A stretch of DNA of 64,000 bases from Actinomycetota bacterium (lineage in GTDB: Bacteria > Actinomycetota > UBA4738 > HRBIN12), in the NCBI GenBank assembly GCA_038249195.1, contig JBBRWM010000005.1:190220-254219 (forward strand), in the 5' to 3' direction. Made by a program: the position numbers and the translations under genes. The notes under the pieces are model-generated. The model saw only the letters and a list, made by a program, of their open reading frames with translations. It was not told the origin of the DNA and did not search any database. This document shows positions 50,852-61,552 of this stretch, one piece after another. Every line of letters begins with the position of its first letter. Within the stretch, counting starts at the first letter, position 1.

Positions 50852-51406
50852 CTACCCGTCGGGGGTCGTGCGCCCGTACTGATCCGGGATGCTTCCCCAA
50901 CCCCACGTGACGACAGGACCCTTCGGACGCACGCCGTACACGTCCTCCGGGTCGACTCCGACCTCGATCACCGTGCACCGGTGTGTCCAGCCATCTCCGA
51001 AGTCGAATTCGTACTCGAAGACCTCCCCCTCCTCCCGCCGCGCGAGCTTGCTCCGCGCGGCGTCACGATACGGAAGCTCGTCGTCCGGGATCCCGATCCC
51101 GACGCCATCGGCCATCCGAAAGGCGTACAGATGTCCCAGATCCCACCGTGCGAACGCGGCGTTGATCGTCTCGGCGAGCTGCCGGAACGTGTGCTGGGGC
51201 GAGATCAACACGTCGCGCCCCGGAGGTGGGTCGCACACGATACCGCGGCCATGCGGGAGCTCGATCCTGATGACGTACCAACCGTCGAGTCGTCCCGAAG
51301 GCCCGGGCTTCGGAAGCGTGATCCTCTCCAGCCGCTCCGCGAGGAGCGACATCGTCTCCGGATCCTTGGCCTCCACCAGGCGCAAGATCCGCTCGCGATC
51401 GTCCAC
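50852..51406 (-). CDS. pRiA4b ORF-3-like (IS1096 passenger TnpR-like) protein
   Basis: TFRQLAETINAAFARWDLGHLYAF...FEYEFDFGDGWTHRC. Confidence 0.75.
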   Translation of the reverse strand: MDDRERILRLVEAKDPETMSLLAERLERITLPKPGPSGRLDGWYVIRIELPHGRGIVCDPPPGRDVLISPQHTFRQLAETINAAFARWDLGHLYAFRMADGVGIGIPDDELPYRDAARSKLARREEGEVFEYEFDFGDGWTHRCTVIEVGVDPEDVYGVRPKGPVVTWGWGSIPDQYGRTTPDG

Positions 51407-51649
51407 GTGCCGCCACCCCCCGATCCGCGACGCGAAAGGCGCATCCTAAGCACGGAACCCGTAGTCGCGCCATCCGAGGCGGCGGAGGATCGGCGGTGGT
51501 GCGAGCAACGTCACCGCGCGGCGACCGGACCCAACTGCTGAGCGAGGGGTTCCGCGAGGAGGGCGATCGCTACGAGATCACCGTCGGTGGGGGAGAGTGC
51601 CAAGCCTACGTCTCCTTGGGTGATCGTCCGCCACGTTGGCCCTCTATCG

Positions 51650-52300
51650 CTAGGTGGTGACGCCGAGGTCCTGGCCGATCAGGCTCGTGAGCGTCGCCTC
51701 ACCGAGACCGCCCACCCAGATGTCGGCGATCGCTCCGCCCGGCCGCACGAAGATCGTGGTGGGCATCCCCGTTGTGCCGGCCGCGCGGAAGAAGGCCCCT
51801 GAGGCGTCGATCCCGGCCGGGTAGGTGATACCCGTTCGCTGGGCGAGCGCGATGCTGGCCGCCGTGCTATCGCTCTGCGAGACGCCGAGGAAGCGCACTC
51901 GATCGCCGAGGGCCTGATGGACCTTCTCGAACTCGGGCATCTCGCCTACACAGTTCGGGCACCAGGACGCGAAGAAGTTGATGACGAGCGGCTTGTCGGA
52001 GAGGGTGGCATAGTCGATCGTACCGCTGCCCTCGAGGGTTGGGAGCTCGAGCCGTTCGAGGGTGCCGCCTCTGCGGATCGTTCCCGCGTACGCAACCTCC
52101 TGGGACGAGTCGCGGCGGATGTCTCGGGTCAGGACGAGCCCGATCGCGCCCACCAGGACAACCACCGTCTCCAGCACGCCAAACCGCCGCAGCCCGGCAC
52201 CGGCGCGATCCCGCCGCCGCTGTCGCTTCCGCTCCGCCGCGGCCTTGGCGCGACGTTCGGTCTTGCGCGCCCTCGCTCCGTCATCTCGTCCTATCGACAT
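51650..52300 (-). CDS. Membrane-anchored TlpA/ResA-like thiol-disulfide oxidoreductase (start uncertain)
   Basis: TM segment, KPLVINFFASWCPNC..EMP, GMPTTIFV. Confidence 0.85.
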   Translation of the reverse strand: MSIGRDDGARARKTERRAKAAAERKRQRRRDRAGAGLRRFGVLETVVVLVGAIGLVLTRDIRRDSSQEVAYAGTIRRGGTLERLELPTLEGSGTIDYATLSDKPLVINFFASWCPNCVGEMPEFEKVHQALGDRVRFLGVSQSDSTAASIALAQRTGITYPAGIDASGAFFRAAGTTGMPTTIFVRPGGAIADIWVGGLGEATLTSLIGQDLGVTT

Positions 52301-52302
52301 AG

Positions 52303-52330
52303 GGACGCCGTGGATGCCCCAACGATTCCT
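52303..52330 (-). promoter_or_regulatory. ECF promoter motif AGGAAT-N17-CGTCC facing the TlpA gene
   Basis: Minus strand AGGAAT cgttggggcatccacgg CGTCC; same spacing as three other copies. Confidence 0.75.
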
Positions 52331-52338
52331 TGATGTTG

Positions 52339-52366
52339 GGGAATCCCAGGGGGCGCACGCGCGTCC
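52339..52366 (+). promoter_or_regulatory. ECF promoter motif GGGAAT-N17-CGTCC facing the DUF3179 gene
   Basis: GGGAAT cccagggggcgcacgcg CGTCC. Confidence 0.8.
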
Positions 52367-52392
52367 ACCTTTGATAGAGATTGGAGGCGCCG

Positions 52393-53463
52393 GTGGGAGT
52401 GCATGGATCGACCCCTGGCATCCGCGGCCGGACGGTGGGGCTGGCTGTAACGCTCGCGCTCATGGCCGCGGCTTGCACGCATTCGACGGCGCCGCCGGAC
52501 TCGAGCTCGAGCCGTGCCTCGCAACAGGAACCCGGTCCGATCGCGCCCTCACCGCTGGTCGAAGCGGACCAGATCGTCTCTGGCGGCGTGCCCCCCGATG
52601 GCATCCCGCCGATCGACGACCCCACATTCGTCCTTGCGACCGGTGCTCCGAAGTTGGCCCCCCAAGAGCCCGTCATCGCGGTCGAGATCAACGGGGTGTC
52701 GAAGGCCTACCCGGTGCGGATCATGACCTGGCACGAGGTCGTGAACGACGAGTTCGCCGGGGCGCCGGTCCTCGTCACGTATTGCCCGCTGTGCAACACC
52801 CGCATCGCGTTCCTGCGCCCGAGGATCGAGGGCGAAGTTCTCGACTTCGGCACCAGCGGCAAGCTCTACGACTCCAACCTCGTCATGTACGACCGCCAGA
52901 CCATGTCGTATTGGCCGCAGGCGTTGGGCGTGGCGATCACCGGACCGCTCACCGGCACCAAGCTCACCTTCGCTCCAGCGCGATTGCTCGCGTGGTCGGA
53001 CTGGCGGGCGGCGAACCCCCAGGGTCTCGTCCTTTCCGCGAATACGGGGTTCGCGCGCGCCTACGGCACGAACCCGTACGTCGGGTACGAGAACGCCCGG
53101 TTCCCGTTCCTGTTCAACGGTGACCTGGATCCCAGGCTCCCGGCGACGGAGCACGTGCTCGGCGCGCCCGGGATCCGGCCGATCGCATTCTCATACTCGG
53201 CGCTGTCAAGACGCGCCGCCGCGGGCGAATCGTCGACGAACAGACGGGGCACGACGTGGACGATAGACGGGCGGGGTGTGTCGGGTCCGCTCGCGGGGTC
53301 GAGGCTTCGCGCCGCGTTGGCGATCGACAGCTTCTGGTTCGATTGGGCGGCGTTCCATCCAGATACGACGGTATACGGTGCGCCGGATCGGCTGGGTCGC
53401 TCCCCCAGGGTCAACAGGTCAACCCGCCACTCGATCGGTCGTCCCGGAGCCCTCGATGCGTAG
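52393..53463 (+). CDS. DUF3179-domain lipoprotein
   Basis: Lipobox MAAAC; GGVPPDGIPPID, KAYP..WHEVVND, VTYCPLCNT, FGTSGKLYDSNLVMYDRQT, FWFDWAAFHPDT. Confidence 0.85.
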   Translation: MGVHGSTPGIRGRTVGLAVTLALMAAACTHSTAPPDSSSSRASQQEPGPIAPSPLVEADQIVSGGVPPDGIPPIDDPTFVLATGAPKLAPQEPVIAVEINGVSKAYPVRIMTWHEVVNDEFAGAPVLVTYCPLCNTRIAFLRPRIEGEVLDFGTSGKLYDSNLVMYDRQTMSYWPQALGVAITGPLTGTKLTFAPARLLAWSDWRAANPQGLVLSANTGFARAYGTNPYVGYENARFPFLFNGDLDPRLPATEHVLGAPGIRPIAFSYSALSRRAAAGESSTNRRGTTWTIDGRGVSGPLAGSRLRAALAIDSFWFDWAAFHPDTTVYGAPDRLGRSPRVNRSTRHSIGRPGALDA

Positions 53464-54162
53464 AACGGTTCCTCGATCGAAGACCGGAGCGACGGTGTGC
53501 CCGAGGGCCGAATACACGTGGGGCGGGACCGAGATATCGGCCAGGTACAGCTCACCGACGAGTGCGGCGCCGAGTCGCAGGCCGATCTTGGGCATGGCGA
53601 GCGTTAGCGTCGATGTCGCGTGAACGCACGGGTCGCCGATGCGTCCAGATGACGTGTCGAGCCCGCTGGGGACATCGAGCGAGCAGACCGGGGCGGCTTG
53701 TACCGCCGTCCACGAGATGAGCTCGGCCGCCAGCCCCCGGGGGTCGCCCGACAACGCGTACCCGATGAGCGCATCGATCACGACGTCGGCGTCGACCGGC
53801 TCGCTGGCGACAGGAACCCCCATGCGCCGGAGCGTTTCGAGCTGGCGCCTCGGTACCTCTCCCAACTCGCCGGCAGTTGTCGACGGAACCACGGTTACGG
53901 CAACGCCGCGGACGGCGAGGTGCCGCGCCGCCACCATCCCGCCACCCCCGTTGCCCCCGCTTCCCACGAGCACTGTCACGTCGGCCGGCGCGAACCGCCA
54001 GAGCACGAGCTCCGCCAGGTTCGCGCCCGCGTTCTCCATCATCTGGATCAGCCCGATACCCAGATCTTCCACCATGATGCGATCGACCTCACGCATCTCG
54101 TCGGTGCTCAGCCAGGCCAGCTCACGAGCGTCGACAACAGGGACGCGCGGGCGCTCACTCAT
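53419..54162 (-). CDS. nnrE: Stand-alone NAD(P)H-hydrate epimerase (YjeF N-terminal domain)
   Basis: MREVD, MMENAG, GSGGNGGGG..AARHL, IDALIGY, SLDVPSG, TLTLAMPK, LADISVP. Confidence 0.88.
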   Translation of the reverse strand: MSERPRVPVVDARELAWLSTDEMREVDRIMVEDLGIGLIQMMENAGANLAELVLWRFAPADVTVLVGSGGNGGGGMVAARHLAVRGVAVTVVPSTTAGELGEVPRRQLETLRRMGVPVASEPVDADVVIDALIGYALSGDPRGLAAELISWTAVQAAPVCSLDVPSGLDTSSGRIGDPCVHATSTLTLAMPKIGLRLGAALVGELYLADISVPPHVYSALGHTVAPVFDRGTVLRIEGSGTTDRVAG

Positions 54163-56053
54163 GGCCGAGGGAACCTTCGGCGCGTTCCGCTCGCGCGATC
54201 GCCACCGCCGCGTTGACCAGGCCGATGTGGCTGAATGCCTGAGGGAAGTTGCCGAGGAGTTCGCCGGTGTTGGGCTCCACCTCCTCGGCCAACAGTCCAA
54301 CGTCGTTGGCGTAACCGATCGCACGCTCGAACGTCGCCCGAGCATCCGCGAGGCGACCCGCCATGGCCTGCGCTTGGGCGAGCCAGAACGTGCACAGGAG
54401 GAAGCTGCCTTCCTCGCCATCCAGGCCGTCACGGCTCCGATAGCGCACGACGAGCCCTCGCTCGTCGGTGAGTCGTTCGCCGATGGCATCGATCGTGGCG
54501 AGCATGCGGGGATCGGTCGCCGAGATGAACCCCACGATCGGCATCATGAGCACAGAGGCGTCGAGGTCGCTCGAACCGAGAGACTGAGTGAAGGCGCCCG
54601 CGCTGTTACTCCATCCTTCGTCGAGGATCGCGGTGCGGATCTCGGATCGAGCGCGTCGCCAGTCGTCGACGCGGTCGGTCGCGCCGAGGCCGTCTGCCAG
54701 CGCGATCGCGCGATCCACCGCGACCCAGCACATGAGTTTGGAATACAGGAATGGGCGGCGACCGCCGCGCACCTCCCAGATGCCTTCGTCGTCTTCGCGC
54801 CACCGCTCGGCCGCGGCGTCCGCGACGTCGGCAAGGAAGTGTCTCGTGAGGTCATCGAACTCGTCGAACTCCTCCCGGAAGACGGCAGCGGCATCGAGCA
54901 ACTCGCCGTACACGTCCAGCTGGAGTTGATCCCAGGCACCGTTGCCGATCCGGACCGGCGAGCTGCCCCGATACCCGCGCAGGTGGGGGAGCTCGCGTTC
55001 GGAAAGATCATGTTCGCCACCGATCCCGAACATGATCTGCAGGCCGGACCCCTCGTGCAGGCTTTCGGCAGCCGAGCCGGCCATCCACGAGAAGAAGTGA
55101 TGTGCCTCCGCCGGACACGCGGTCTTGCTCAATGCCTGGATCGTGAAGCTCGCGTCACGAACCCAGGCGTATCGGTAGTCCCAGTTCCTGACGCCGCCGA
55201 CCGTCTCGGGCAGCGACGTTGTCGGGGCGGCGACCATCGCCCCGGTTGGACGGAAGGTCAGCGCTTGCAACACTCGGCCGCTGTGCATCACGAGCTCGCG
55301 CCACGGGCCGTCGTATCCATCATGGGCCCGGGACCAAGCGGCCCATATGTCGATGGTCTGGTCGATCAGCTGCTCGGCGTCGGCCTCATCGAACGACCGG
55401 GGCGCGGGCTCCCAACTCTGTGCGTGGTTGAGGGCGAACGTCAAACGCTCGCCCACTCGGAGTTCGACCTCTGCCTTCGCCGTCGACCCCTCGACATCGA
55501 AGGGAACCCGGCCAGAGAGAACCAGCACGCTCGCGCCGCCGCGAGCGATGAGCCCGCCGTCGATCGTGCGGAGTAGTGGCGAGATGAGACCGTATTCGGG
55601 CCGCGGAGCGTACTCGACGCCGATGCGCACACCCCCCTGGGTGCAGACCACCCGGCGGATGAGCGCACCCGGTGCCACACCGCCGACCTCATGAGTGCCG
55701 TCGACGCTAGCGCCGACCGCGTACGCGTCTTCCAGCGTGATGGTGCCCGATACGGTGCTGAACGTGGTCTCAAGGACCATCGTGCCGTCCAGGTAACGGC
55801 GTTGCACTTCTGCCGTTTCGGTTGGCGCGATCGTCCAGTGACCGGCTCGCTCGTCCAGCAACCGACAGAACACGGGCGCCGCGTCGAAGCGGTCGAAGCA
55901 CAGCCAGTCGATCGATCCGGCCTTGGATACCAGGGCCGATCCGTGGGAATCGGAGAGCAGGCCGTAGTCGGCGATCGGAGTGCTCAAGTGGTCATCAGCC
56001 GTGCCCGGCCCCGACGTGTCGGGTGCTGCCACCCTCCGGATCGCGCGTGTCAT
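54155..56053 (-). CDS. Glycoside hydrolase family 15 (second copy)
   Basis: IADYGLLSD, AAPTTSLPE..GGVRNWDYRYAWVRD, QLDVYGE, LLAEE...GNFPQAFSH; overlaps the nnrE start. Confidence 0.93.
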   Translation of the reverse strand: MTRAIRRVAAPDTSGPGTADDHLSTPIADYGLLSDSHGSALVSKAGSIDWLCFDRFDAAPVFCRLLDERAGHWTIAPTETAEVQRRYLDGTMVLETTFSTVSGTITLEDAYAVGASVDGTHEVGGVAPGALIRRVVCTQGGVRIGVEYAPRPEYGLISPLLRTIDGGLIARGGASVLVLSGRVPFDVEGSTAKAEVELRVGERLTFALNHAQSWEPAPRSFDEADAEQLIDQTIDIWAAWSRAHDGYDGPWRELVMHSGRVLQALTFRPTGAMVAAPTTSLPETVGGVRNWDYRYAWVRDASFTIQALSKTACPAEAHHFFSWMAGSAAESLHEGSGLQIMFGIGGEHDLSERELPHLRGYRGSSPVRIGNGAWDQLQLDVYGELLDAAAVFREEFDEFDDLTRHFLADVADAAAERWREDDEGIWEVRGGRRPFLYSKLMCWVAVDRAIALADGLGATDRVDDWRRARSEIRTAILDEGWSNSAGAFTQSLGSSDLDASVLMMPIVGFISATDPRMLATIDAIGERLTDERGLVVRYRSRDGLDGEEGSFLLCTFWLAQAQAMAGRLADARATFERAIGYANDVGLLAEEVEPNTGELLGNFPQAFSHIGLVNAAVAIARAERAEGSLGHE

Positions 56054-56185
56054 CGACCGTTAGCCTCTCTCATCCCTCACACCCCGGCAGTCTCACGAAA
56101 GAGGTTCCCGTTACGCTCGGCCGTATGCCGAAGCTGATCCTGGGTAGCCCGACGCCGATCATCGCGGTGGGTCTGGCGACGACTA

Positions 56186-56212
56186 AGACGGGTCGTCTGA
56201 GCGCTCGTTCCC
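56186..56212 (-). promoter_or_regulatory. Degenerate ECF promoter GGGAAC-N16-CGTCT facing the GH15-nnrE operon
   Basis: Minus strand GGGAAC gagcgctcagacgacc CGTCT; two mismatches and a spacer one nucleotide shorter. Confidence 0.35.
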
Positions 56213-56232
56213 TGACGCCCGGGACCTTCCCA

Positions 56233-56260
56233 GGGAATACGAGTGAGGGTTCAGGCGTCC
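56233..56260 (+). promoter_or_regulatory. ECF promoter motif GGGAAT-N17-CGTCC facing the radical SAM operon
   Basis: GGGAAT acgagtgagggttcagg CGTCC, 50 nt before ATG 56311. Confidence 0.8.
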
Positions 56261-56310
56261 GAGTGTTGAGGCGAGATGTCCTGGCCTCGTTCACGAGAAC
56301 GGGAGACGCG

Positions 56311-56793
56311 ATGGTGACGTTCCAGACAGGCCCCGCATTGTTCAGCGGCTTCGTGGCAACCGTCGCGATGACGATGGTGATGATGGCGGGCCGGGCGATG
56401 GGGATGACGACGATGGACATGCCGCTCATCCTCGGTGGCATGGTCACGGCGGACGGATCAAGAGCGCGGCGCCTCGGGCTGGCCATCCACGTCGTGATGA
56501 TGGGGACCGTCGCCTTCGGGGTTGTCTATGCAGCTCTGTTCACTTTGCTCGACTCCGACGCCGCGCTGACTGGCGTGGCGATCGGCCTCGTCCACGGTCT
56601 TCTATTCGGCCTCATGGTGCTCCCGATGATGCCGGCGATCCACCCACGGATGAAGGCCTCAGCCGATGGGTTCCACCTCGATCCCCCGAGAATCATGGGC
56701 GCCACCTACGGTCGAGGTACGGGGATAGGTCTTCTCCTCGCGCACGCAACCTACGGCCTGGTCATAGCACTGGTGTATGGAGCCATCACGTGA
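56311..56793 (+). CDS. Met/His-rich four-TM membrane protein of unknown function
   Basis: About four hydrophobic helices with intramembrane His (AIHVVMMG, LVHG, LAHATYG) and a Met cluster; GGGAG RBS; GTGA overlap with the radical SAM gene. Confidence 0.75.
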   Translation: MVTFQTGPALFSGFVATVAMTMVMMAGRAMGMTTMDMPLILGGMVTADGSRARRLGLAIHVVMMGTVAFGVVYAALFTLLDSDAALTGVAIGLVHGLLFGLMVLPMMPAIHPRMKASADGFHLDPPRIMGATYGRGTGIGLLLAHATYGLVIALVYGAIT

Positions 56794-58331
56794 CGCGCGA
56801 GCATCCGACGCCTTCCCCAGCAGGAACTCCACCTCCGAGAGCCGATCGAGATGAGGTCTTCTTGGAGGTAACGAAGAGCATCTGCCCGCTGTGCAAACGG
56901 GTGCTCGACGCCGAGGTGAACATCCGCGACAACAGAGTCATCCTTCGCAAACGCTGCCCCGACCACGGCGAGTTCGAAGCGCTCGTCTACGGGGACGCCA
57001 CGATGTACATGGACGCGCTGCGGTTCAACAAGCCGGGCACGTACCCGCTCGAGACACAGACCGAAGTCGTCGACGGGTGCCCGTTGGATTGCGGGCTGTG
57101 TCCGGACCACAAGCAGCACGCGTGCGTCGGCTTGATCGAGGTGAACTCGAATTGCAACCTGGACTGCCCGGTGTGTTTCGCCGACTCCGGGCATCAGGCA
57201 GACGGGTTCTCGCTGACCATGGAGCAGGTCGAGCTCGGCCTCGACACCTTCGTCCGGGCTGAAGGCGAACCAGAGGTGCTGATGCTCTCCGGCGGCGAGC
57301 CCTCCATCCACCCGCAGATCCTGGGATTCATCGCCATGGCACGGGACAAGGGGATCCGTCACGTCGTTCTGAACACGAACGGGATCCGATTGGCTCGAGA
57401 CCGTGCCTTCGCTGCTGCATTGGCCAAGGAACGCACCGCGATCTACCTGCAGTTCGATGGACTTCGGGAAGACACCCACGTCCGGATCAGGGGCCGCGAT
57501 CTGCGCACGTTGAAGGATCAGGCCCTCGACCGCTGTGCCGAGTTCGGTCTGTCGGTCACGTTGGTGGCGGCCGTGGAGAAGGGTGTGAACGACGACGAGC
57601 TCGCCGACATCCTGCGCTTCGGATTCGCCCATCCGGCGGTGCATTCGGTGGTGTTCCAGCCGGTCACGCACGCGGGACGTCATCTCCAGTTCGAGCCACT
57701 CGAGCGGCTCACGAACTCCGACGTGATCCACGCGATCGTGGACCAGATGCCCGAGACGTTCGAGCTGAACGACTTCTTCCCGGTGCCCTGTTGCTTCCCG
57801 ACCTGTCGGAGTGTCACCTACCTGCTGGTCGACGGTGAAGACATCGTGCCGGTGCCGAGGATCCTCAACATCGAAGATCACCTCGACTACGTGACGAATC
57901 GCGCGCTGCCCGACCCCGCGATCCGCGGGGCATTGGAGAGGCTCTGGAGCGCATCGGCGGTGCCGGGAACTGCCGACACGGCGGAACAGCTCGCCTGTGC
58001 GACGTGCGCGATCGACCTGCCGGAAGCGGTTCGCAACCTCACGGACAAGGCGTTCATGATCGTGATCCAGGACTTCCAAGACGCATATACGTTGAACGTA
58101 CGGCAGCTCATGAAGTGCTGCGTCGAACAGATCACACCCGACGGACGTCTGATCCCGTTCTGCGCGTACAACTCGGTCTGGTATCGCGAGGAGATCCGAG
58201 CCCAGCTCACCGGCTTGACGGTCGAAGATGTGGTTCCCAATGCACGAGCCTTGCAACCGCTGCTGCGATCCGGCCCGCACGGTTCCAAGGTGGTGGGGCG
58301 GCCATCGGCGACGACCCATCCTCGGAACTGA
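56790..58331 (+). CDS. Multi-cluster radical SAM enzyme of the Tes/GDGT-MAS (MJ0619)/TrsS-like family
   Basis: SICPLC...CPDHGEF, GCPLDCGLCPDH, CNLDCPVC (CX3CX2C), SGGEP, LNTNG, YLQFDG, FQP, KCC..ITPDGRLIPFCAYN. Confidence 0.85.
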   Translation: MTREHPTPSPAGTPPPRADRDEVFLEVTKSICPLCKRVLDAEVNIRDNRVILRKRCPDHGEFEALVYGDATMYMDALRFNKPGTYPLETQTEVVDGCPLDCGLCPDHKQHACVGLIEVNSNCNLDCPVCFADSGHQADGFSLTMEQVELGLDTFVRAEGEPEVLMLSGGEPSIHPQILGFIAMARDKGIRHVVLNTNGIRLARDRAFAAALAKERTAIYLQFDGLREDTHVRIRGRDLRTLKDQALDRCAEFGLSVTLVAAVEKGVNDDELADILRFGFAHPAVHSVVFQPVTHAGRHLQFEPLERLTNSDVIHAIVDQMPETFELNDFFPVPCCFPTCRSVTYLLVDGEDIVPVPRILNIEDHLDYVTNRALPDPAIRGALERLWSASAVPGTADTAEQLACATCAIDLPEAVRNLTDKAFMIVIQDFQDAYTLNVRQLMKCCVEQITPDGRLIPFCAYNSVWYREEIRAQLTGLTVEDVVPNARALQPLLRSGPHGSKVVGRPSATTHPRN

Positions 58332-58335
58332 CGGC

Positions 58336-59142
58336 ATGACGACGATCGTCGATCCCGCAACGGTGAAGGCATGCTGCACCTCGCTGTACGAACACAGGCT
58401 CACGGGGTGGCTGCTGGAGGATGGATTTCATCCCGGTGGTGTGGCCCTGACTGACCGACTCGTCGAGCTCCTCGAGGTGTCGGCCGAACAGCAGGTGGTC
58501 GACGTCGCCGCCGGGCCGGGAACGTCGGCACTTCGCGTCGCAGCCACGATGGATGCTCGGGTGCACGGAGTGGATCTGTCCTCGGCACTCGTCGAGGCGG
58601 CGACCGAGCGGGCACGAAACCAGGGTCTATCCGATCGCGTTGTTTTCACCGTCGGCGATGCGGAGCGCCTGCCGCTGGGCGACGGTGCGGCGGACGTGGT
58701 TCTGTGCGAATGCTCGCTCTGCATCTTCCCGGATAAGCGCGATGCCGTACGGGAGATGGCCCGCGTGGTTCGGCCGGGTGGGCGGGTGGGTGTCGCGGAC
58801 GTCGTGGTCGATCGACGCCGTCTTCCTCCGGAACTCGATACCCTCGCGGCACGCGTCGCGTGCATCGCGGATGCGCGAACCCTCGAGGAGAACATCGGTC
58901 TTCTCCAGGGGGGAGGTCTCCGCATCGACGTCATCGAACGTCACGACGCGGCGGTCATGGCGATGCTCGACCGGATCGACGCGCGTCTCGCTATCGCTCG
59001 GATGGCCCTCCCTGCGGAGCGAACCGACGACATCCGGCGTGCGCGCTCGATCGTGTCGTCCGTCAGGCGGGTGGTCGAAGACGGTGTGGTCGGCTACGCC
59101 CTCGTCGTGGCGACCAGAGCGGACGGCGATCGTGTCGCGTGA
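58336..59142 (+). CDS. Class I SAM-dependent methyltransferase, Cys-rich (ArsM-like Cys pattern)
   Basis: KACC, HPGG, VDVAAGPG, GDAERLP, VLCECSLC, RPGGRV, ACIADA. Confidence 0.85.
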   Translation: MTTIVDPATVKACCTSLYEHRLTGWLLEDGFHPGGVALTDRLVELLEVSAEQQVVDVAAGPGTSALRVAATMDARVHGVDLSSALVEAATERARNQGLSDRVVFTVGDAERLPLGDGAADVVLCECSLCIFPDKRDAVREMARVVRPGGRVGVADVVVDRRRLPPELDTLAARVACIADARTLEENIGLLQGGGLRIDVIERHDAAVMAMLDRIDARLAIARMALPAERTDDIRRARSIVSSVRRVVEDGVVGYALVVATRADGDRVA

Positions 59143-59185
59143 TCCAGCCGACGTCTTCGCGCCGGACCGCGCCGAGCGGTCGACC

Positions 59186-59213
59186 GGGAATCATCGCCGT
59201 GTTTCGGGCGTCC
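59186..59213 (+). promoter_or_regulatory. ECF promoter motif GGGAAT-N17-CGTCC (probable autoregulatory promoter of the sigma gene)
   Basis: GGGAAT catcgccgtgtttcggg CGTCC, 18 nt before the sigma ATG. Confidence 0.82.
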
Positions 59214-59231
59214 AAGTCGGTGTGACGACAT

Positions 59232-59759
59232 ATGGCCACTGATCAGGACGAGTTCTTGCGAGCCACGATGGGATGCCTGGATCTCGTCCATAACCTGGCG
59301 CGGCGGACGGTGTATTCACCTGAGGATGCCCAGGATCTCGTGCAGGAGACCTATCTCGCCGCCTTCCGTGCATGGCAGGACGACCGGCGCCCCAACAAGG
59401 TCGAACCGTGGATCGCGACCATCTGCCTGAACCTCGGGCGGTCCTTCTTCCGGCGACGCGCTCGTCGGCCATATGAGGTTGCGCTCGACGATCGCTTGAT
59501 CGTGTTGCCCGATGGCTCCGACCCCGAAGCTGACGCGATCGCGACGCTCGATCGCGAGGCGCTACACGCGGCGATGTGGCAACTCCCGGAGGAACAACGC
59601 ACTGCCATCACCCTCGTCGATCTCGGGGGTTTGAGCACAGCCGAGGCCGCCGAGGTGATGGGAACGCCCCAGGGGACGGTCCTGTCTCGCCTTCATCGCG
59701 GTCGTCGAGCGCTCGCGATCCTGATGACCAACGACATCCCGCAGCGGGAGGTGACCTGA
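59232..59759 (+). CDS. ECF sigma factor (SigH/SigR-like)
   Basis: DAQDLVQETYLAAFRAW; LPEEQRTAITLVD..S..EAAEVMGTPQGTVLSRLHRGR. Confidence 0.92.
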   Translation: MATDQDEFLRATMGCLDLVHNLARRTVYSPEDAQDLVQETYLAAFRAWQDDRRPNKVEPWIATICLNLGRSFFRRRARRPYEVALDDRLIVLPDGSDPEADAIATLDREALHAAMWQLPEEQRTAITLVDLGGLSTAEAAEVMGTPQGTVLSRLHRGRRALAILMTNDIPQREVT

Positions 59760-60065
59760 ATGTCCCGAGAGCGGATCGATCCGGCTCTGGATATCCGACG
59801 CGCCCACGACCCCGAGATGAACGCGTCGCTCTATCTGGCCGGCGAGCTGCCGAGGCGATTGACCCGCTGGCTCGAGCGTCACCTCCTCGAGTGTGATGAC
59901 TGCTGGCGGGAAGTGTGGCTGGCTCGGCGTGGCCGCTTCATCGCCGAGCACGCCCGCGAGCTGGCGCCCCCAACCCTTCGAGACGCGGTGCGTGGTGCGG
60001 TTCAGCTATCGGCGACCGAGTATCGATCGGCACGTCGTCGCAGGGCCTGGTTCCGCCGACGCTGA
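59760..60065 (+). CDS. Zinc-binding anti-sigma factor (zf-HC2/ZAS)
   Basis: YLAGEL...LERHLLECDDC (HxxxCxxC); small, soluble, directly after the sigma gene. Confidence 0.88.
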   Translation: MSRERIDPALDIRRAHDPEMNASLYLAGELPRRLTRWLERHLLECDDCWREVWLARRGRFIAEHARELAPPTLRDAVRGAVQLSATEYRSARRRRAWFRRR

Positions 60066-60123
60066 CGAGCGGTCGCGCTGATGGCCTGGCGGCACTGAGG
60101 ACCCTGACAGCTTGTCCCCGACG

Positions 60124-60677
60124 TCAAGACCGCGCGGGGCCTCGCTCGTAGAGCTTCATCGCCCGGCGGAAGCCGACGAGGCCGATCAACGCGCACCGGA
60201 CAGCGCTGAGCAGCGCGCTGTTGCCGATCGCCGTCCCCATCAGGAGTCCGCGCAACGTTTCGATGAACGGCGTGAACGGCTGGTATTCGGCGAAGCGGAT
60301 CCCCGCCGGCATCGAGTCAACGGGGACGAATCCGCTGCTGAGGAACGGCAACAGGTTGGCCATGAGCGCCGGGTTCTCCTCGCCGGTCAGGAGCGTGTCC
60401 ACCGCGGAGAACTGCCCGGTGACCCCGATGACGTCGCGGACGGCGTTCGGCTCCCGTGCCGCGTCGTGGCCCGCGACCCGCACCGTTCCGGAGTCGGGAT
60501 CGAGCAGCGTCGACAGGATGTGCACGGTCGTGGTCTTCCCGGCGCCGTTCGGCCCGAGCAAGCGAAGACCGAACCGGTTGCGATCTGGAGGTCGATGCCG
60601 TCCAGCGCGACCGTGTCGCCGAACGACTTGCGGAGGCCGGCGACCTCGAGCGCCGGGGCGGTGGTGGTGGCGGTCAC
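60124..60677 (-). pseudogene. Collapsed DrrA/DrrB-type ABC exporter: ATPase 5' part fused to permease 3' part
   Basis: GLRKSFG..LDGIDL / frameshift / LLGPNGAGKTT...GQFSAVDTLLTGEEN then directly LPFLSSGFVPVDSMP...YQPFTPFIETLRGLL; no ABC signature or Walker B. Confidence 0.85.
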
Positions 60678-61552
60678 GACGCATCCCTGCCTGCGCGGCT
60701 CGACAGCGAACGGTGGATCTCGATGTCGCCGAACGAGGTCGACGCGTGCACCTCGACCGTGGCCATCCCCGCCTCGGGACTCACAGAGTCATCAAGGCCG
60801 TTGTGCACGTTGCCGAACTTGGTATGGAGGTCGAGCCAGGCCGCGACGCCGTCGAGGACACCGACCTCGATCTGGCCGAACGCAGTCTGCGCAACGGCTG
60901 CACCACGCGCGACCTCCCCGATGCGAACGTCGCCCTTGGCCGTCTTGGCGACGACCCCTTCGTGCGCCCGATCGACGGAGATCGAACCATCGGCTGCGCT
61001 CACGCGGGCTGCACCCGATACCTCGCCGATCCAGGTGTCGCCGCTCGAGTTCTTCGTCGCGGCGGTCCCGTCGATGCTGCCGATCCGCACAGCGCCGGAG
61101 CCCGTGACGATCTCCACCTTGCCGACGGCCCGTTCCATCGTGATGTCGCCGACACCGGTCTTGAGGTTCAGGCGGCCCGTCTCGTCGAGCCGGATCTCGC
61201 CGACACCGACCTTGCACTGGCACTCGCCGAGCCGGCCGCGGCCGTGCACCGCCCCCACTCCCGCCTCGACACGCACGCGCGAGCCCTCGGGCAGACCGAT
61301 CTCGACGTCGATCGATCCGCCGCCCCGGTGCGGGCTCCATTGCCGCCAGCCGCTTTGCGCCTTGACCTGCAGGTTTCCGTTCGCGTAGTCGACGCGGGTC
61401 TGCTCGGCGGCCGTAACATCGGCCTTCTTCGTCAGGTCGCTCGGTCGCACCTCGACGGTGGTCTCGGTGCGATCGCTCGCCTCGATCCGGAGGTCCCCGA
61501 CGCCGAGCTCCACATCGACGGAGATCGGCTCGGGGGTGTCGAACGTCGCCAT
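60674..61552 (-). CDS. DUF4097 beta-strand repeat protein
   Basis: MATFDTPEPISV..., repeated KTG.GDI / GEV.G units, AWLDLHTKFGNV; GGAGG RBS. Confidence 0.82.
   Translation of the reverse strand: MATFDTPEPISVDVELGVGDLRIEASDRTETTVEVRPSDLTKKADVTAAEQTRVDYANGNLQVKAQSGWRQWSPHRGGGSIDVEIGLPEGSRVRVEAGVGAVHGRGRLGECQCKVGVGEIRLDETGRLNLKTGVGDITMERAVGKVEIVTGSGAVRIGSIDGTAATKNSSGDTWIGEVSGAARVSAADGSISVDRAHEGVVAKTAKGDVRIGEVARGAAVAQTAFGQIEVGVLDGVAAWLDLHTKFGNVHNGLDDSVSPEAGMATVEVHASTSFGDIEIHRSLSSRAGRDAS

What the first reader, a model, noticed from the sequence alone, without database searches (positions are those of the whole stretch)
51650..60065. Self-contained ECF-sigma regulon defined by four copies of (G/A)GGAAT-N17-CGTCC
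Seen in sequence: the same bipartite motif with an exact 17-nt spacer occurs four times, always intergenic and always pointing into the adjacent gene. The copies are at 52303-52330(-) before TlpA, 52339-52366(+) before DUF3179, 56233-56260(+) before membrane protein/radical SAM/methyltransferase, and 59186-59213(+) before the ECF sigma itself. A weaker copy at 56186-56212(-) faces GH15-nnrE. Established knowledge: ECF sigmas usually autoregulate, SigR/SigH recognise GGAAT-N18-GTT, and HxxxCxxC zinc anti-sigmas can sense thiol oxidation. Inference: these seemingly unrelated genes form one stress-responsive system (extracytoplasmic thiol redox proteins + radical SAM + methyltransferase, perhaps also NAD(P)HX repair) driven by the local sigma with a variant GTCC -10 element. 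I know of no description of this regulon.
Basis: partly seen in the sequence, partly recalled or inferred. Interest (0 to 1): 0.85.

Follow-up and report, generated by a model that had tools for sequence, protein, structure and literature searches.

The report
Conserved ECF sigma mini-regulon, uncultured Actinomycetota
Four matching promoter-like sites around one alternative sigma factor gene mark a small, evolutionarily conserved stress regulon that ties several proteins of unknown function to redox maintenance outside the cell membrane.

Summary
RGGAAT-N17-CGTCC occurs 4 times in the window (0.15 expected) and 5 times in the whole 2.82-Mb genome. All four window copies are intergenic and point into the next gene.

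No transcription data exist.
- Among 29 orthologous sigma loci, 22 carry GGAAT-N17-CGTC within 250 nt upstream of the sigma gene.
- Among 80 loci holding the radical SAM gene, the motif is about 13-15 times denser in the 6 that also hold the sigma orthologue.
- A matrix built only from relatives' sites ranks the window's four sites 1, 2, 5 and 9 genome-wide.

The conserved core is sigma, a zinc-finger (HxxxCxxC) anti-sigma, a TlpA-like thioredoxin (often with CcdA) and the DUF3179 lipoprotein. The radical SAM/methyltransferase pair, DUF6789, NnrE, DUF1684 and DUF7482 are recurrent accessories. GH15 is not supported.

The sigma is not SigR/SigH. A true SigH-RsrA pair lies elsewhere in the genome, and GGAAT-N18-GTT sites there precede thioredoxin, DnaK and Lon.

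The inducing signal is unknown, and thiol sensing is not supported by RsrA's sequence determinants. This is a new, uncharacterised member of a known kind of system, of moderate interest.

The parts
59186..59213 (+). Autoregulatory promoter-like site (GGGAATC-N16-GCGTCC) 18 nt before the sigma ATG
   Evidence: It is the top-scoring site in the whole genome with a matrix built from relatives only (28.1 bits). The equivalent site is present in 22 of 29 orthologous loci.
59232..59759 (+). ECF sigma factor (175 aa; sigma-70 regions 2 and 4 only)
   Evidence: Pfam Sigma70_r2 50.7 bits and r4_2 60.8 bits. TIGR02937 75.4 bits against a cut-off of 42.9, but below the cut-offs for SigM (101.2 vs 190), SigE-fam (92.3 vs 141.55) and SigH_actino (90.3 vs 251.55). 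The closest solved chains are M. tuberculosis SigH and SigE. It is 34% identical to the genome's own SigH.
59760..60065 (+). Soluble zinc-finger (ZAS-type) anti-sigma, 101 aa; the ATG abuts the sigma stop codon; H15, H41, C45 and C48 are putative Zn ligands
   Evidence: zf-HC2 30.1 bits against a cut-off of 22.2. Sequence. HxP[ED]-x18-30-HxxxCxxC is present in 31 of 34 orthologous ORFs. The RsrA model scores 23 bits against a cut-off of 62.5.
52303..52330 (-). Promoter-like site facing the TlpA-like gene, back-to-back with the next site
   Evidence: matrix rank 5 genome-wide (19.5 bits). Caveat: the ATG at 52300 lies only 2 nt after CGTCC.
51650..52300 (-). Membrane-anchored TlpA/ResA-like thiol:disulfide oxidoreductase (WCPNC active site)
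   Evidence: AhpC-TSA 55.9, Redoxin 53.2 and Thioredoxin 32.2 bits. Sequence. Orthologues lie under the motif in 14 of 15 loci where present, mostly as sigma-antisigma-TlpA operons.
52339..52366 (+). Promoter-like site facing DUF3179
   Evidence: matrix rank 2 genome-wide (21.5 bits).
52393..53463 (+). DUF3179 lipoprotein with an invariant TYCPLCN motif; its central domain is predicted to have a Rieske-like fold
   Evidence: PF11376 292.7 bits. Lipobox and sequence. Invariant W-H-E and C-P-L-C in 50 homologues. AlphaFold2 model pLDDT 78.1. VIA-align top Z 7.2 to Rieske ferredoxins over residues 100-201. Under the motif in 16 of 17 loci.
56233..56260 (+). Promoter-like site facing the DUF6789-radical SAM-methyltransferase operon
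   Evidence: matrix rank 9 genome-wide (16.1 bits). Equivalent sites precede the radical SAM gene in L022, L023, L024, L025, L047, L160 and L161.
56311..56793 (+). Met-rich membrane protein (DUF6789)
   Evidence: PF20587 28.9 bits against a cut-off of 27.1. Sequence. Similar Met-rich membrane proteins follow motif sites in L153, L158, L159, L162, L164, L166, L167 and L170.
56790..58331 (+). Radical SAM enzyme of the TrsS/Tes family with an N-terminal zinc ribbon
   Evidence: Radical_SAM 74.7 and Zn_ribbon_HMPTM 62.3 bits. TrsS 347.3 bits (cut-off 490) and Tes 322.7 bits (cut-off 450). Its start overlaps the DUF6789 stop codon.
58336..59142 (+). SAM-dependent methyltransferase, DVU_1556-like and ArsM-like (the longer ORF starts at 58228)
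   Evidence: Methyltransf_31/25/11 at about 78 bits. DVU_1556 family 130.7 bits (cut-off 155). It accompanies the radical SAM gene in most of the 80 loci.
56187..56211 (-). Weak candidate site (GGAAC-N16-CGTCt) facing GH15-NnrE; status open
   Evidence: The back-to-back geometry matches the family's habit, and N16 spacers occur in relatives. However, GGAAC departs from the near-invariant GGAAT.
53419..54162 (-). NAD(P)H-hydrate epimerase NnrE; possible member through the weak site
   Evidence: YjeF_N 129.4 bits; TIGR00197 127 bits against a cut-off of 88.6. It lies in motif-driven operons in L025, L160 and L164, and also next to the sigma in L119 and L153.
54155..56053 (-). GH15/trehalase-like hydrolase; neighbour, not supported as a member
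   Evidence: Glyco_hydro_15 251.3 bits. Under the motif in 0 of 3 loci where present.

Best explanation
The stretch holds an autoregulated ECF sigma / zinc-finger anti-sigma pair together with its complete local regulon.

**Mechanism.** In the resting state the 101-aa soluble anti-sigma, whose His-His-Cys-Cys site probably holds zinc, sequesters the sigma. An unknown stimulus releases the sigma. I consider oxidative or electrophilic damage connected with the cell envelope the most likely stimulus. The freed sigma directs RNA polymerase to four promoters of the form GGAATC-N16-(G)CGTCC:
- its own (positive feedback);
- the TlpA-like thioredoxin;
- the DUF3179 lipoprotein;
- the DUF6789 / radical SAM / methyltransferase operon.

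**Output.** The products act mostly outside the cytoplasmic membrane. TlpA (with CcdA in relatives) delivers reducing power. DUF3179, with its invariant CPLC site on a Rieske-like domain, is the conserved client or effector. The radical SAM/methyltransferase pair and the Met-rich membrane protein are an add-on module of unknown chemistry.

**Relation to SigH.** The sigma is a separate family from SigR/SigH. SigH coexists in the genome, and its candidate promoters differ at the last base of the -10 core (GTT versus GTC).

**Shown by computation:** the sites, their conservation, their co-occurrence with the sigma, and the protein families.

**Inferred:** that the sigma binds these sites, that the anti-sigma inhibits it, the nature of the signal, and every biochemical role.
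For: **Statistics in this genome**
- The window holds 4 sites against 0.15 expected.
- Four of the 5 genome-wide strict sites lie in this 7 kb.
- A matrix built from 23 relatives' sites, with no window site, was scanned over both strands of 2.8 Mb. It puts the window sites at ranks 1, 2, 5 and 9. Among the top 30, the only other hits that are intergenic and within about 130 nt upstream of a same-strand gene are two weak ones, C4:111431 and C8:60720.

**Autoregulation is conserved**
- Of 29 non-self sigma orthologues (58-79% identity), 22 have GGAAT-N17-CGTC within 250 nt upstream. In 21 of these it ends 7-20 nt before the start, and in one (L133) 35 nt before.
- Two more have an N16 spacer, 2 have one mismatch, and 3 have nothing.
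- The same holds in other classes of the phylum: L179 and L183, and L182 with GCAAT.

**Co-occurrence with the sigma**
- Among 80 radical SAM loci, the 6 with the sigma orthologue and anti-sigma have 17 strict sites in 106 kb.
- The other 74 have 15 in 1,219 kb. The 57 of these with GC above 0.62 have 10 in 951 kb (Poisson p 6e-15).

**Targets are conserved** (28 loci, relaxed pattern). Counts are loci under the motif out of loci where the gene is present:

| Gene | Under motif / present |
|---|---|
| sigma | 21 / 28 |
| DUF3179 | 16 / 17 |
| TlpA | 14 / 15 |
| CcdA | 8 / 9 |
| radical SAM | 7 / 11 |
| DUF7482 | 4 / 6 |
| DUF1684 | 3 / 4 |
| NnrE | 3 / 5 |

In G092 the only two genome-wide GGAAT-N17-CGTCC hits are the divergent pair at the sigma locus.

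**Protein features**
- The sigma has regions 2 and 4 only.
- The anti-sigma has HxxxCxxC plus a conserved N-terminal His at RsrA's Cys11 spacing (26 residues). The pattern is kept in 31 of 34 orthologues.

**Distinct from SigH**
- The genome's true SigH scores 267.6 bits (cut-off 251.55) and its RsrA 66.6 bits (cut-off 62.5). Both lie on contig 1, and that SigH is 34% identical to this sigma.
- Four of the 9 GGAAT-N18-GTT hits are intergenic. They precede pirin, thioredoxin, DnaK and Lon.

**Other**
- No sigma-70-type promoter match was found in the 9.8 kb (0 against 1.0 expected).
Against: - There is no transcription evidence of any kind. No RNA run holds this sequence, so transcription starts are unmapped.
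- Related genomes are not independent samples. Some promoters are identical between loci (L021 and L168), so counts and the Poisson p overstate the support.
- My gene calls for relatives are crude (tblastn plus a codon-usage ORF picker), and operon chains are inferred from spacing alone.
- The TlpA copy is geometrically awkward. The ATG that preserves the conserved basic tail lies 2 nt after CGTCC, so this site may give a leaderless or truncated message, or not serve tlpA as assumed.
- Seven of 28 sigma loci show no site with the relaxed pattern.
- Several relatives' sites end in CGTT, the SigH-type core, so cross-recognition by SigH is not excluded.
- The signal is not established. The anti-sigma lacks RsrA's Cys11, matches the published redox determinants only in part, and about 9 of 34 orthologues are long membrane-anchored forms.
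- The genome is 97.5% complete in 41 contigs, so unassembled targets are possible.
Confidence: 0.85

Rival explanations
1. The sites are read by the genome's canonical SigH/SigR-type sigma (contig 1), not by the local sigma. On this view the cluster is simply part of the general thiol-stress regulon.
For: The -35 box (GGAAT) and the spacing are the same as in the GGAAT-N18-GTT sites found before thioredoxin, DnaK and Lon. A few relatives' sites end in CGTT (L022 +2223, L047 -9516 and +12267). The closest solved sigma is M. tuberculosis SigH.
Against: The motif tracks the presence of this particular sigma. There are 17 sites in 106 kb with it, against 10 in 951 kb without it in high-GC radical SAM loci. 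The 10 radical SAM loci that hold DUF3179 but not this sigma carry 1 strict site in all. The site precedes this sigma's own gene in 22 of 29 loci. The fifth base is C in all four window sites, and the core is GTC, not GTT. I did not test whether the control genomes encode SigH.
Confidence: 0.06
2. The bipartite motif is the operator of another DNA-binding regulator, for example a repressor, rather than a promoter.
For: Nothing specific. Bipartite conserved boxes can be operators, and back-to-back copies resemble an inverted pair.
Against: The boxes are directional and always point into a gene. Upstream of the sigma orthologues they end at a narrow distance from the start codon, 7-20 nt in 21 of the 22 strict cases. 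They match the general ECF -35/-10 layout, and they precede an ECF sigma gene. No other conserved regulator gene was seen in the loci.
Confidence: 0.04
3. The regulon is as in the best explanation, but the signal and function concern a soft metal or metalloid or chalcogen (Cu, As, Se, Hg), not oxidants. The radical SAM/methyltransferase pair would then form an organo-element compound.
For: - The methyltransferase resembles ArsM and DVU_1556-type enzymes, and the radical SAM protein resembles TrsS, which is listed as a selenoprotein (table in PMC13188914).
- DUF3179 occurs as a UxxC/T selenoprotein in other lineages (tables in PMC13188914 and PMC9312934).
- Regulon members in relatives include Met/His-rich DUF4399-like lipoproteins, a cupredoxin-like lipoprotein, a rhodanese and a weakly MerT-like membrane protein.
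- The DUF6789 protein is Met-rich.
Against: All family matches for the radical SAM protein and the methyltransferase are below curated cut-offs. No arsenic, copper or mercury resistance genes were seen in the loci. TlpA/CcdA, a membrane molybdopterin oxidoreductase of the sulfite-oxidase/MsrP type and NnrE fit damage repair as well. The paper that defines TrsS was not available.
Confidence: 0.25
4. The four copies are a chance or compositional coincidence, or remnants of a duplicated DNA element.
For: The genome is GC-rich, and short GC-rich words recur.
Against: None of 100 shuffles reached 4. No extended repeat covers the sites. The spacers are unrelated. The sites are conserved in position across orthologous loci.
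Confidence: 0.01

Closest known systems
SigR-RsrA (Streptomyces coelicolor) / SigH-RshA (Mycobacterium): ECF sigma with a soluble ZAS anti-sigma
   Same: Both have a small ECF sigma co-transcribed with a ~100-aa soluble HxxxCxxC anti-sigma, an autoregulatory promoter, a GGAAT -35 box and the same spacing to the GT of the -10 core. The N-terminal ligand position is 26 residues before the His of HxxxCxxC, as in RsrA. The promoter consensus GGAAT-N18-GTT is recalled, and RsrA residue numbers are from the abstract of PMC3177212.
   Different: Below the family cut-offs: SigH_actino 90.3 bits against 251.55, and RsrA 23 against 62.5. A true SigH-RsrA pair exists elsewhere in the genome, and that SigH is 34% identical to this sigma. 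The -10 core is GTC(C), not GTT. His replaces RsrA's Cys11. The targets are extracytoplasmic proteins rather than cytoplasmic thioredoxin and proteostasis genes.
M. tuberculosis SigM (NCBIfam PRK09643)
   Same: It is the best-scoring named NCBIfam model for the sigma (101.2 bits). I recall a GGAAC / GTCCGA-type promoter being reported for SigM, which resembles CGTCC. I did not verify this in a paper.
   Different: The score is far below the cut-off of 190. The anti-sigma type and the regulon are different (recalled).
ChrR / RslA-type ZAS anti-sigmas with His-His-Cys-Cys zinc sites
   Same: The putative ligand set is H15, H41, C45 and C48. Only the CxxC cysteines are available for oxidation, as described for RslA (title and abstract of PMC2877774 seen in the listing).
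   Different: There is no C-terminal cupin domain or membrane domain in the window's protein. No solved structure matches by sequence.
TrsS radical SAM (seleno)protein with a DVU_1556-family methyltransferase; tetraether lipid synthase Tes
   Same: The radical SAM protein aligns over the full TrsS model (residues 27-461 to model positions 2-430 of 441). The adjacent methyltransferase best matches the DVU_1556 family.
   Different: Both are below cut-off (347.3 against 490; 130.7 against 155), and Tes scores 322.7 against 450. No selenocysteine codon was noted. The function of TrsS is itself unknown to me. The defining paper (Haft and Tolstoy 2025) was not held.
TlpA/ResA-CcdA extracytoplasmic reducing pathway
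   Same: It is a membrane-anchored thioredoxin-fold protein with a CxxC site. It is paired with a DsbD_TM (CcdA) protein in 9 of 28 related loci.
   Different: Scores are below the ResA, TlpA and DsbE equivalog cut-offs. No cytochrome c maturation genes were seen nearby. Its conserved partner is DUF3179.

Membership tests
ECF (group 4) sigma-70 factors | Only regions 2 and 4 are present; matches the family model above cut-off | tested here: met
   Sigma70_r2 50.7 bits and Sigma70_r4_2 60.8 bits. TIGR02937 75.4 bits against a cut-off of 42.9. Length 175 aa.
ECF (group 4) sigma-70 factors | Co-transcribed cognate anti-sigma and an autoregulatory promoter with -35 (G)GAA(C/T) and -10 CGT boxes | tested here: met
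   The anti-sigma ATG abuts the sigma stop codon. The site at 59186-59213 is conserved in 22 of 29 orthologous loci. Actual transcription was not testable.
SigR/SigH family (TIGR02947) | Score above the curated cut-off | tested here: not met
   90.3 bits against 251.55. The genome's contig-1 sigma scores 267.6.
SigR/SigH family (TIGR02947) | Promoter GGAAT-N18-GTT (recalled consensus) | tested here: not met
   All four window sites read GGAAT-N18-GTC. GTT-type sites occur elsewhere before thioredoxin, DnaK and Lon.
RsrA (TIGR03988), redox-sensing ZAS | Score above cut-off; Cys at the N-terminal ligand position; the E39/E40/L45/E46-type flanks | tested here: not met
   23 bits against 62.5. His15 stands in place of Cys11. 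The flanks read H-LLE-C-DD-C-WRE, against RsrA's H-FEE-C-SP-C-LEK (abstract of PMC3177212).
ZAS anti-sigma factors (zf-HC2) | HxxxCxxC motif in an N-terminal anti-sigma domain | tested here: met
   PF13490 30.1 bits against a cut-off of 22.2. The sequence shows H41-x3-C45-x2-C48. The motif is kept in 31 of 34 orthologues.
ZAS anti-sigma factors (zf-HC2) | Binds zinc and binds its sigma | not testable with these tools
   Needs metal analysis and a binding assay. I did not run a complex prediction, because a textbook pair would pass by likeness to solved structures.
SigM (PRK09643) | Score above the curated cut-off | tested here: not met
   101.2 bits against 190.
TrsS radical SAM (NF045646) / Tes (NF045702) | Score above the curated cut-off | tested here: not met
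   347.3 bits against 490, and 322.7 against 450. Membership of the radical SAM superfamily itself is met (PF04055 74.7 bits against 29.5).
DVU_1556 family methyltransferase (NF045667) | Score above the curated cut-off | tested here: not met
   130.7 bits against 155.
DUF3179 (PF11376) | Score above the gathering cut-off | tested here: met
   292.7 bits against 27. The CPLC motif is invariant in 50 homologues.
Rieske-type fold (for the DUF3179 core) | Structural match of the domain; Cys/His ligands on two loops | tested here: inconclusive
   VIA-align top Z 7.2, rmsd 2.8 A, 95 residues (3gce_A). Twenty-one chains reach Z of 5 or more, and nearly all the listed rows are Rieske proteins. Z below 8 is in the common range, and Foldseek gave nothing at E <= 0.001. 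The candidate ligands H114, C131 and C134 do not reproduce the CxH...CxxH pattern (recalled).
TlpA/ResA thiol:disulfide oxidoreductases | Thioredoxin fold with CxxC, membrane anchor or signal, above equivalog cut-off | tested here: inconclusive
   The Pfam redoxin families are above cut-off, and WCPNC and a TM segment are present. The ResA, DsbE and TlpA equivalog or subfamily cut-offs are not reached (54.2 against 170; 41.2 against 123; 26.8 against 230).

The most novel reading that the evidence does not exclude
One cell runs two paralogous zinc-anti-sigma/ECF circuits that share the -35 box and the spacing. A single base of the -10 core (GTT for SigH, GTC for this sigma) would keep them apart, one guarding the cytoplasm and the other the cell envelope. 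The second circuit would define an undescribed extracytoplasmic pathway. In it a Rieske-fold CPLC lipoprotein (DUF3179), kept reduced by TlpA/CcdA, works with a TrsS/Tes-like radical SAM enzyme and a methyltransferase on a chalcogen, metalloid or membrane-lipid substrate.
Probability: 0.2. Interest if true: 0.7.

Novelty: new member of a known kind. Interest (0 to 1): 0.45.

Why it matters
**A functional handle on unknown families.** The regulon places several protein families with no known role under one stress-responsive control and in one cellular compartment. These are DUF3179, DUF6789, DUF1684, DUF7482 and a TrsS/Tes-like radical SAM enzyme with its methyltransferase. DUF3179 alone has thousands of homologues: 5,186 of the 8,000 candidates scored had E <= 1e-10.

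**Almost no literature.** DUF3179 appears in three papers in the searched library, and in the two I read only as a table entry.

**A compact test system.** The system has one sigma, one anti-sigma and four short promoters. It could serve as an orthogonal switch. Together with the genome's SigH, it is also a natural test case for how closely related ECF sigmas avoid cross-talk.

**Uncultured lineages only.** All close homologues of the sigma come from metagenomes or metagenome-assembled genomes and carry only generic names. Prediction is therefore currently the only route to its biology.

**In print.** My searches found no description of this regulon. The group tables of the ECF classification (PMC7826278) are in supplements that I could not open. 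The sigma may already carry a group number there.

Tried and rejected
- **RNA evidence.** The look-up of sequencing runs listed no RNA holder, only three DNA runs of one sediment-metagenome study. No reads were laid, and nothing can be said about expression.
- **TrsS literature.** The defining paper (Haft and Tolstoy 2025) is not held, by PMC id or by DOI. A search for 'DVU_1556' found nothing.
- **ECF group assignment.** The main text of PMC7826278 gave no group with this gene context. Its supplements are closed, so the group number is unknown.
- **ECF specificity paper.** PMC7776599 has no text matches for the motif words.
- **Anti-sigma structure.** The anti-sigma has no PDB match by sequence.
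- **DUF3179 function.** The ESM Atlas returned only DUF3179 clusters. Foldseek against the PDB gave no match at E <= 0.001.
- **Extra regulon members in this genome.**
  - C4:111431 (TGGAAT..CGTCC) precedes a KdpD-like kinase/response-regulator operon. It scores low (13.2 bits) and I treat it as chance.
  - C1:216695 lies at the start of a pyridoxamine-phosphate oxidase gene, 292 nt from a DinB-family gene, and was not pursued.
  - C3:333157 has no downstream gene.
- **Whole-genome scans of relatives.** Scans of 5 relatives with the strict CGTCC form were informative only for G092 and G249. G025's real sites end in CGTCg or CGTCt, so its 10 hits (control 4) are mostly noise. G116 had none.
- **First gene caller.** My first GC3-threshold caller was too strict and I replaced it with a codon-usage caller.
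- **Complex prediction.** I did not run complex prediction, because a sigma/ZAS pair would pass by likeness to solved structures.

**Unpublished genomes.**
- The tallies 44 of 294 and 21 of 401 include unpublished genomes: G042, G043, G046, G048, G065 and G292 in the first, and G294, G310 and G503 in the second.
- L134 (G292) is one of the 29 loci and one of the 34 ORFs. Without it the counts are 21 of 28 and 31 of 33.
- G029 supports no claim.
- The 28-locus census uses no genome that or 88 flagged as unpublished.

Full report
**1. The observation**

The pattern RGGAAT-N17-CGTCC matches four times in the 64-kb window, at 52303-52330(-), 52339-52366(+), 56233-56260(+) and 59186-59213(+). The chance expectation is 0.15, and none of 100 shuffles reached four.

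The window is C5:190220-254219 of an assembly of 2,816,490 bp in 41 contigs, with 69.4% GC. In the whole assembly the strict pattern occurs five times on both strands, four of them here.

The four copies share only the two boxes. Their spacers differ, and no longer repeat family covers them. A sigma-70-type promoter scan of 51000-60800 found nothing, against 1.0 expected.

**2. The genes**

| Coordinates | Product | Key evidence |
|---|---|---|
| 51650-52300(-) | Membrane-anchored thioredoxin-fold protein | WCPNC site |
| 52393-53463(+) | DUF3179 lipoprotein | Lipobox; YCPLCN motif |
| 53419-54162(-) | NnrE | |
| 54155-56053(-) | GH15 | |
| 56311-56793(+) | Met-rich DUF6789 membrane protein | |
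| 56790-58331(+) | Radical SAM enzyme | Best matches TrsS (347 bits, cut-off 490) and Tes (323, cut-off 450) |
| 58336-59142(+) | Methyltransferase | Best matches the DVU_1556 family (131 bits, cut-off 155) and ArsM |
| 59232-59759(+) | ECF sigma | |
| 59760-60065(+) | zf-HC2 anti-sigma, 101 aa | ATG abuts the sigma stop codon |

**3. Is the motif tied to this sigma?**

Three independent kinds of comparison say yes.

*(a) Orthologous sigma loci.* Orthologues of the sigma (E <= 1e-40) occur in 44 of 294 genomes of the same class, G000 included. They occur in only 3 of 37 genomes of its own genus.
- In the 29 non-self loci fetched, GGAAT-N17-CGTC lies within 250 nt upstream of the sigma gene in 22. 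In 21 of these it ends 7-20 nt before the start, and in one (L133) 35 nt before.
- Two more have a 16-nt spacer, two have one mismatch, and three have nothing.
- Outside the class, 15 further genomes of a 401-genome sample of the phylum have orthologues at about 50-57% identity.
- Among those, L179 and L183 show GGAATC-N16-GCGTCC before the sigma and, divergently, before DUF7482. L182 uses GCAAT.

*(b) Radical SAM loci as a control.* A search of GTDB genomes with a radical SAM alignment returned 80 loci from Actinomycetota, Chloroflexota, Dormibacterota, Acidobacteriota, Bacteroidota and a few Streptomyces.
- Only six also encode the sigma orthologue and anti-sigma.
- These six hold 17 strict sites in 106 kb. 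The other 74 hold 15 in 1,219 kb. Three of those 15 are on L023, a 4-kb contig that may simply end before the sigma.
- Among high-GC loci the background is 10 sites in 951 kb.
- Ten loci have DUF3179 next to the radical SAM gene but lack this sigma. Together they carry one strict site.

*(c) A matrix built from relatives.* A position weight matrix built from 23 sites of relatives only, scanned over both strands of the genome, ranks the window's sites 1, 2, 5 and 9. The sigma's own promoter ranks first. Among the 30 best hits, the only others that are intergenic and closely precede a same-strand gene are two weak ones. One of them precedes a KdpD-like two-component operon.

The relatives' consensus is gGGAATC-N15-gGCGTCC.

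**4. The regulon in relatives**

I tallied 28 sigma-bearing loci with a relaxed pattern, tblastn for known members, and operons inferred from spacing.

| Gene | Loci under a motif site / loci where present |
|---|---|
| sigma | 21 / 28 |
| DUF3179 | 16 / 17 |
| TlpA | 14 / 15 |
| CcdA (DsbD_TM) | 8 / 9 |
| radical SAM | 7 / 11 |
| DUF7482 | 4 / 6 |
| DUF1684 | 3 / 4 |
| NnrE | 3 / 5 |
| DUF6789 | 2 / 5 |
| GH15 | 0 / 3 |

- The usual layout is sigma-antisigma-TlpA(-CcdA/-NnrE), with DUF3179 transcribed divergently from back-to-back sites. The window's 52303-52366 pair has the same geometry.
- L160 has seven sites in 6 kb.
- Further genes behind sites include Met-rich membrane proteins, a rhodanese, a membrane-bound molybdopterin oxidoreductase, a cupredoxin-like lipoprotein, Met/His-rich DUF4399-like lipoproteins and an SRPBCC protein.
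- In G092 the only two genome-wide hits of GGAAT-N17-CGTCC are the divergent pair at the sigma locus.
- The radical SAM gene was not found at orthologue level in the 24 same-genus genomes searched.
- The system is therefore patchy. Its core is sigma, anti-sigma, TlpA and DUF3179, and the radical SAM module is an accessory that the window's genome happens to carry.

**5. What kind of sigma?**

- It is an ECF sigma (TIGR02937 above cut-off) but falls below the cut-offs of every named equivalog.
- The closest solved chains are M. tuberculosis SigH and SigE.
- The genome has a true SigH (267.6 bits against 251.55) with a true RsrA (66.6 against 62.5) on contig 1. That SigH is 34% identical to this sigma.
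- GGAAT-N18-GTT, the SigR/SigH consensus as I recall it, occurs nine times in the genome. Four of these hits are intergenic, and they precede pirin, thioredoxin, DnaK and Lon.
- The window's sites read GGAAT-N18-GTC. The two circuits therefore appear to share the -35 box and the spacing and to differ in the -10 core. That this single base insulates them is an inference.

**6. The anti-sigma and the signal**

- The protein has H41-x3-C45-x2-C48, and His15 lies 26 residues before His41, which is the spacing of Cys11 to His37 in RsrA.
- The pattern HxP[ED]-x18-30-HxxxCxxC is present in 31 of 34 orthologous ORFs. The three misses are over-long ORF calls.
- Most orthologues are short and soluble. 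Nine have a transmembrane segment, and about ten have a ~200-residue tail.
- The abstract of Jung et al. 2011 (PMC3177212) names E39, E40, L45 and E46 as the determinants of RsrA's redox sensitivity. This protein keeps only the equivalent of E40, and that position varies among orthologues.
- Thiol oxidation is therefore possible through the CxxC pair, but sequence does not indicate it. The membrane-anchored relatives hint at an envelope-derived signal.

**7. The conserved target DUF3179**

- An alignment of 50 homologues shows invariant W-H-E and Y-C-P-L-C-N.
- An AlphaFold2 model has mean pLDDT 78.1 and pTM 0.73.
- Foldseek found nothing at E <= 0.001.
- VIA-align matched residues 100-201 to Rieske ferredoxins and Rieske domains almost exclusively. 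The top Z is 7.2 (rmsd 2.8 A over 95 residues), and 21 chains reach Z of 5 or more. That Z is in the range the tool calls common, so I treat the fold as a lead.
- Two reviews list DUF3179 as a selenoprotein family with UxxC/T in some organisms (tables in PMC13188914 and PMC9312934). This fits a redox-active or metal-binding CxxC.

**8. Weak points**

- There are no RNA data.
- Relatives are kin, so counts overstate independence.
- Gene calls in relatives are approximate.
- The TlpA ATG lies 2 nt after CGTCC. The basic N-terminal tail it encodes is conserved in orthologues, so the site's geometry there is unexplained.
- The weak site before GH15-NnrE has GGAAC and a 16-nt spacer. Chance gives 0.006-0.011 such matches per 260-nt strand. 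The back-to-back geometry and NnrE's membership in relatives speak for it. The departure from the near-invariant T, and GH15's lack of support, speak against it.

**9. Verdict**

This is a real, conserved, autoregulated ECF sigma/ZAS anti-sigma regulon of a family known only from uncultured Actinomycetota. The kind of system is ordinary. The specific family, its GTC-type promoter and its target set are, as far as my searches show, undescribed. The supplements of the ECF classification, which I could not read, may already list the group.

Noticed in passing
window 52298-52307 (-): The TlpA-like gene's only in-frame canonical start that keeps the conserved basic N-terminal tail (ATG 52300) lies 2 nt after the CGTCC box. 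The next in-frame start (GTG 52177) would remove the tail. This implies a leaderless or unusual initiation, or a promoter that does not serve the full-length gene.
   Followed up: partly
window 52393-53463 (+): The window's DUF3179 protein lacks an internal stretch of roughly 45 residues that is nearly invariant in 49 homologues (alignment columns 369-415 of A2). The deletion is in frame. It could be natural or an assembly artefact.
   Followed up: no
G000 C1:249571-250399 (L177): A canonical SigH (TIGR02947 above cut-off) and RsrA (TIGR03988 above cut-off) pair. GGAAT-N18-GTT sites elsewhere precede pirin (C4:78461), thioredoxin (C4:26835), DnaK (C5:34823) and Lon (C9:52993). A GGAAT-N19-GTT site precedes a YceI gene (C8:33228).
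   Followed up: partly
G000 C3:327000-333964 (L104): The fifth strict motif copy (C3:333157) lies in a ~5.6-kb stretch bounded by two tRNA-Ile(gat) genes in the same orientation. The stretch holds a TPR-LuxR regulator and a sigma-70 region-2-only ORF, and no gene follows the motif. It is possibly an integrated element at a tRNA gene.
   Followed up: partly
window 48581-50365 (+) and 54155-56053 (-): Two GH15/trehalase-like paralogues lie within 6 kb. The first carries a weak TPR match at its C-terminus.
   Followed up: no
L034-L037, L048, L052, L059, L066, L069, L071: Other, more distant ECF sigmas (32-40% identical) sit within 10 kb of the radical SAM/methyltransferase pair. They are often accompanied by DUF3179 and TlpA-like genes but lack the GGAAT-N17-CGTC motif. 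These may be different ECF families controlling the same module through other promoters.
   Followed up: no
L078, L079, L116, L126, L129-L131, L133, L135: Orthologous anti-sigmas come in a long form: a ~200-residue tail, with a predicted transmembrane segment in all of these but L131. The short soluble form is the one seen in the window.
   Followed up: partly
window 59232-59270 (+): The stored protein for this sigma (P0124, 163 aa) covers 93% of the 175-aa ORF. That fits a start 12 codons later, at the Met of MGCLDL. Orthologues align from residue 1, so the ATG at 59232 is the better start.
   Followed up: partly
window 50852-51406 (-): A PRiA4_ORF3-like (plasmid pRiA4b ORF-3) protein lies just downstream of the TlpA-like gene.
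   Followed up: no
L165:10757-10996(-), L166:7283-7489(+): Small rhodanese-domain ORFs directly behind motif sites end right after the YCWDSA segment, at 68-79 residues. They are possibly truncated calls or mini-rhodaneses.
   Followed up: no
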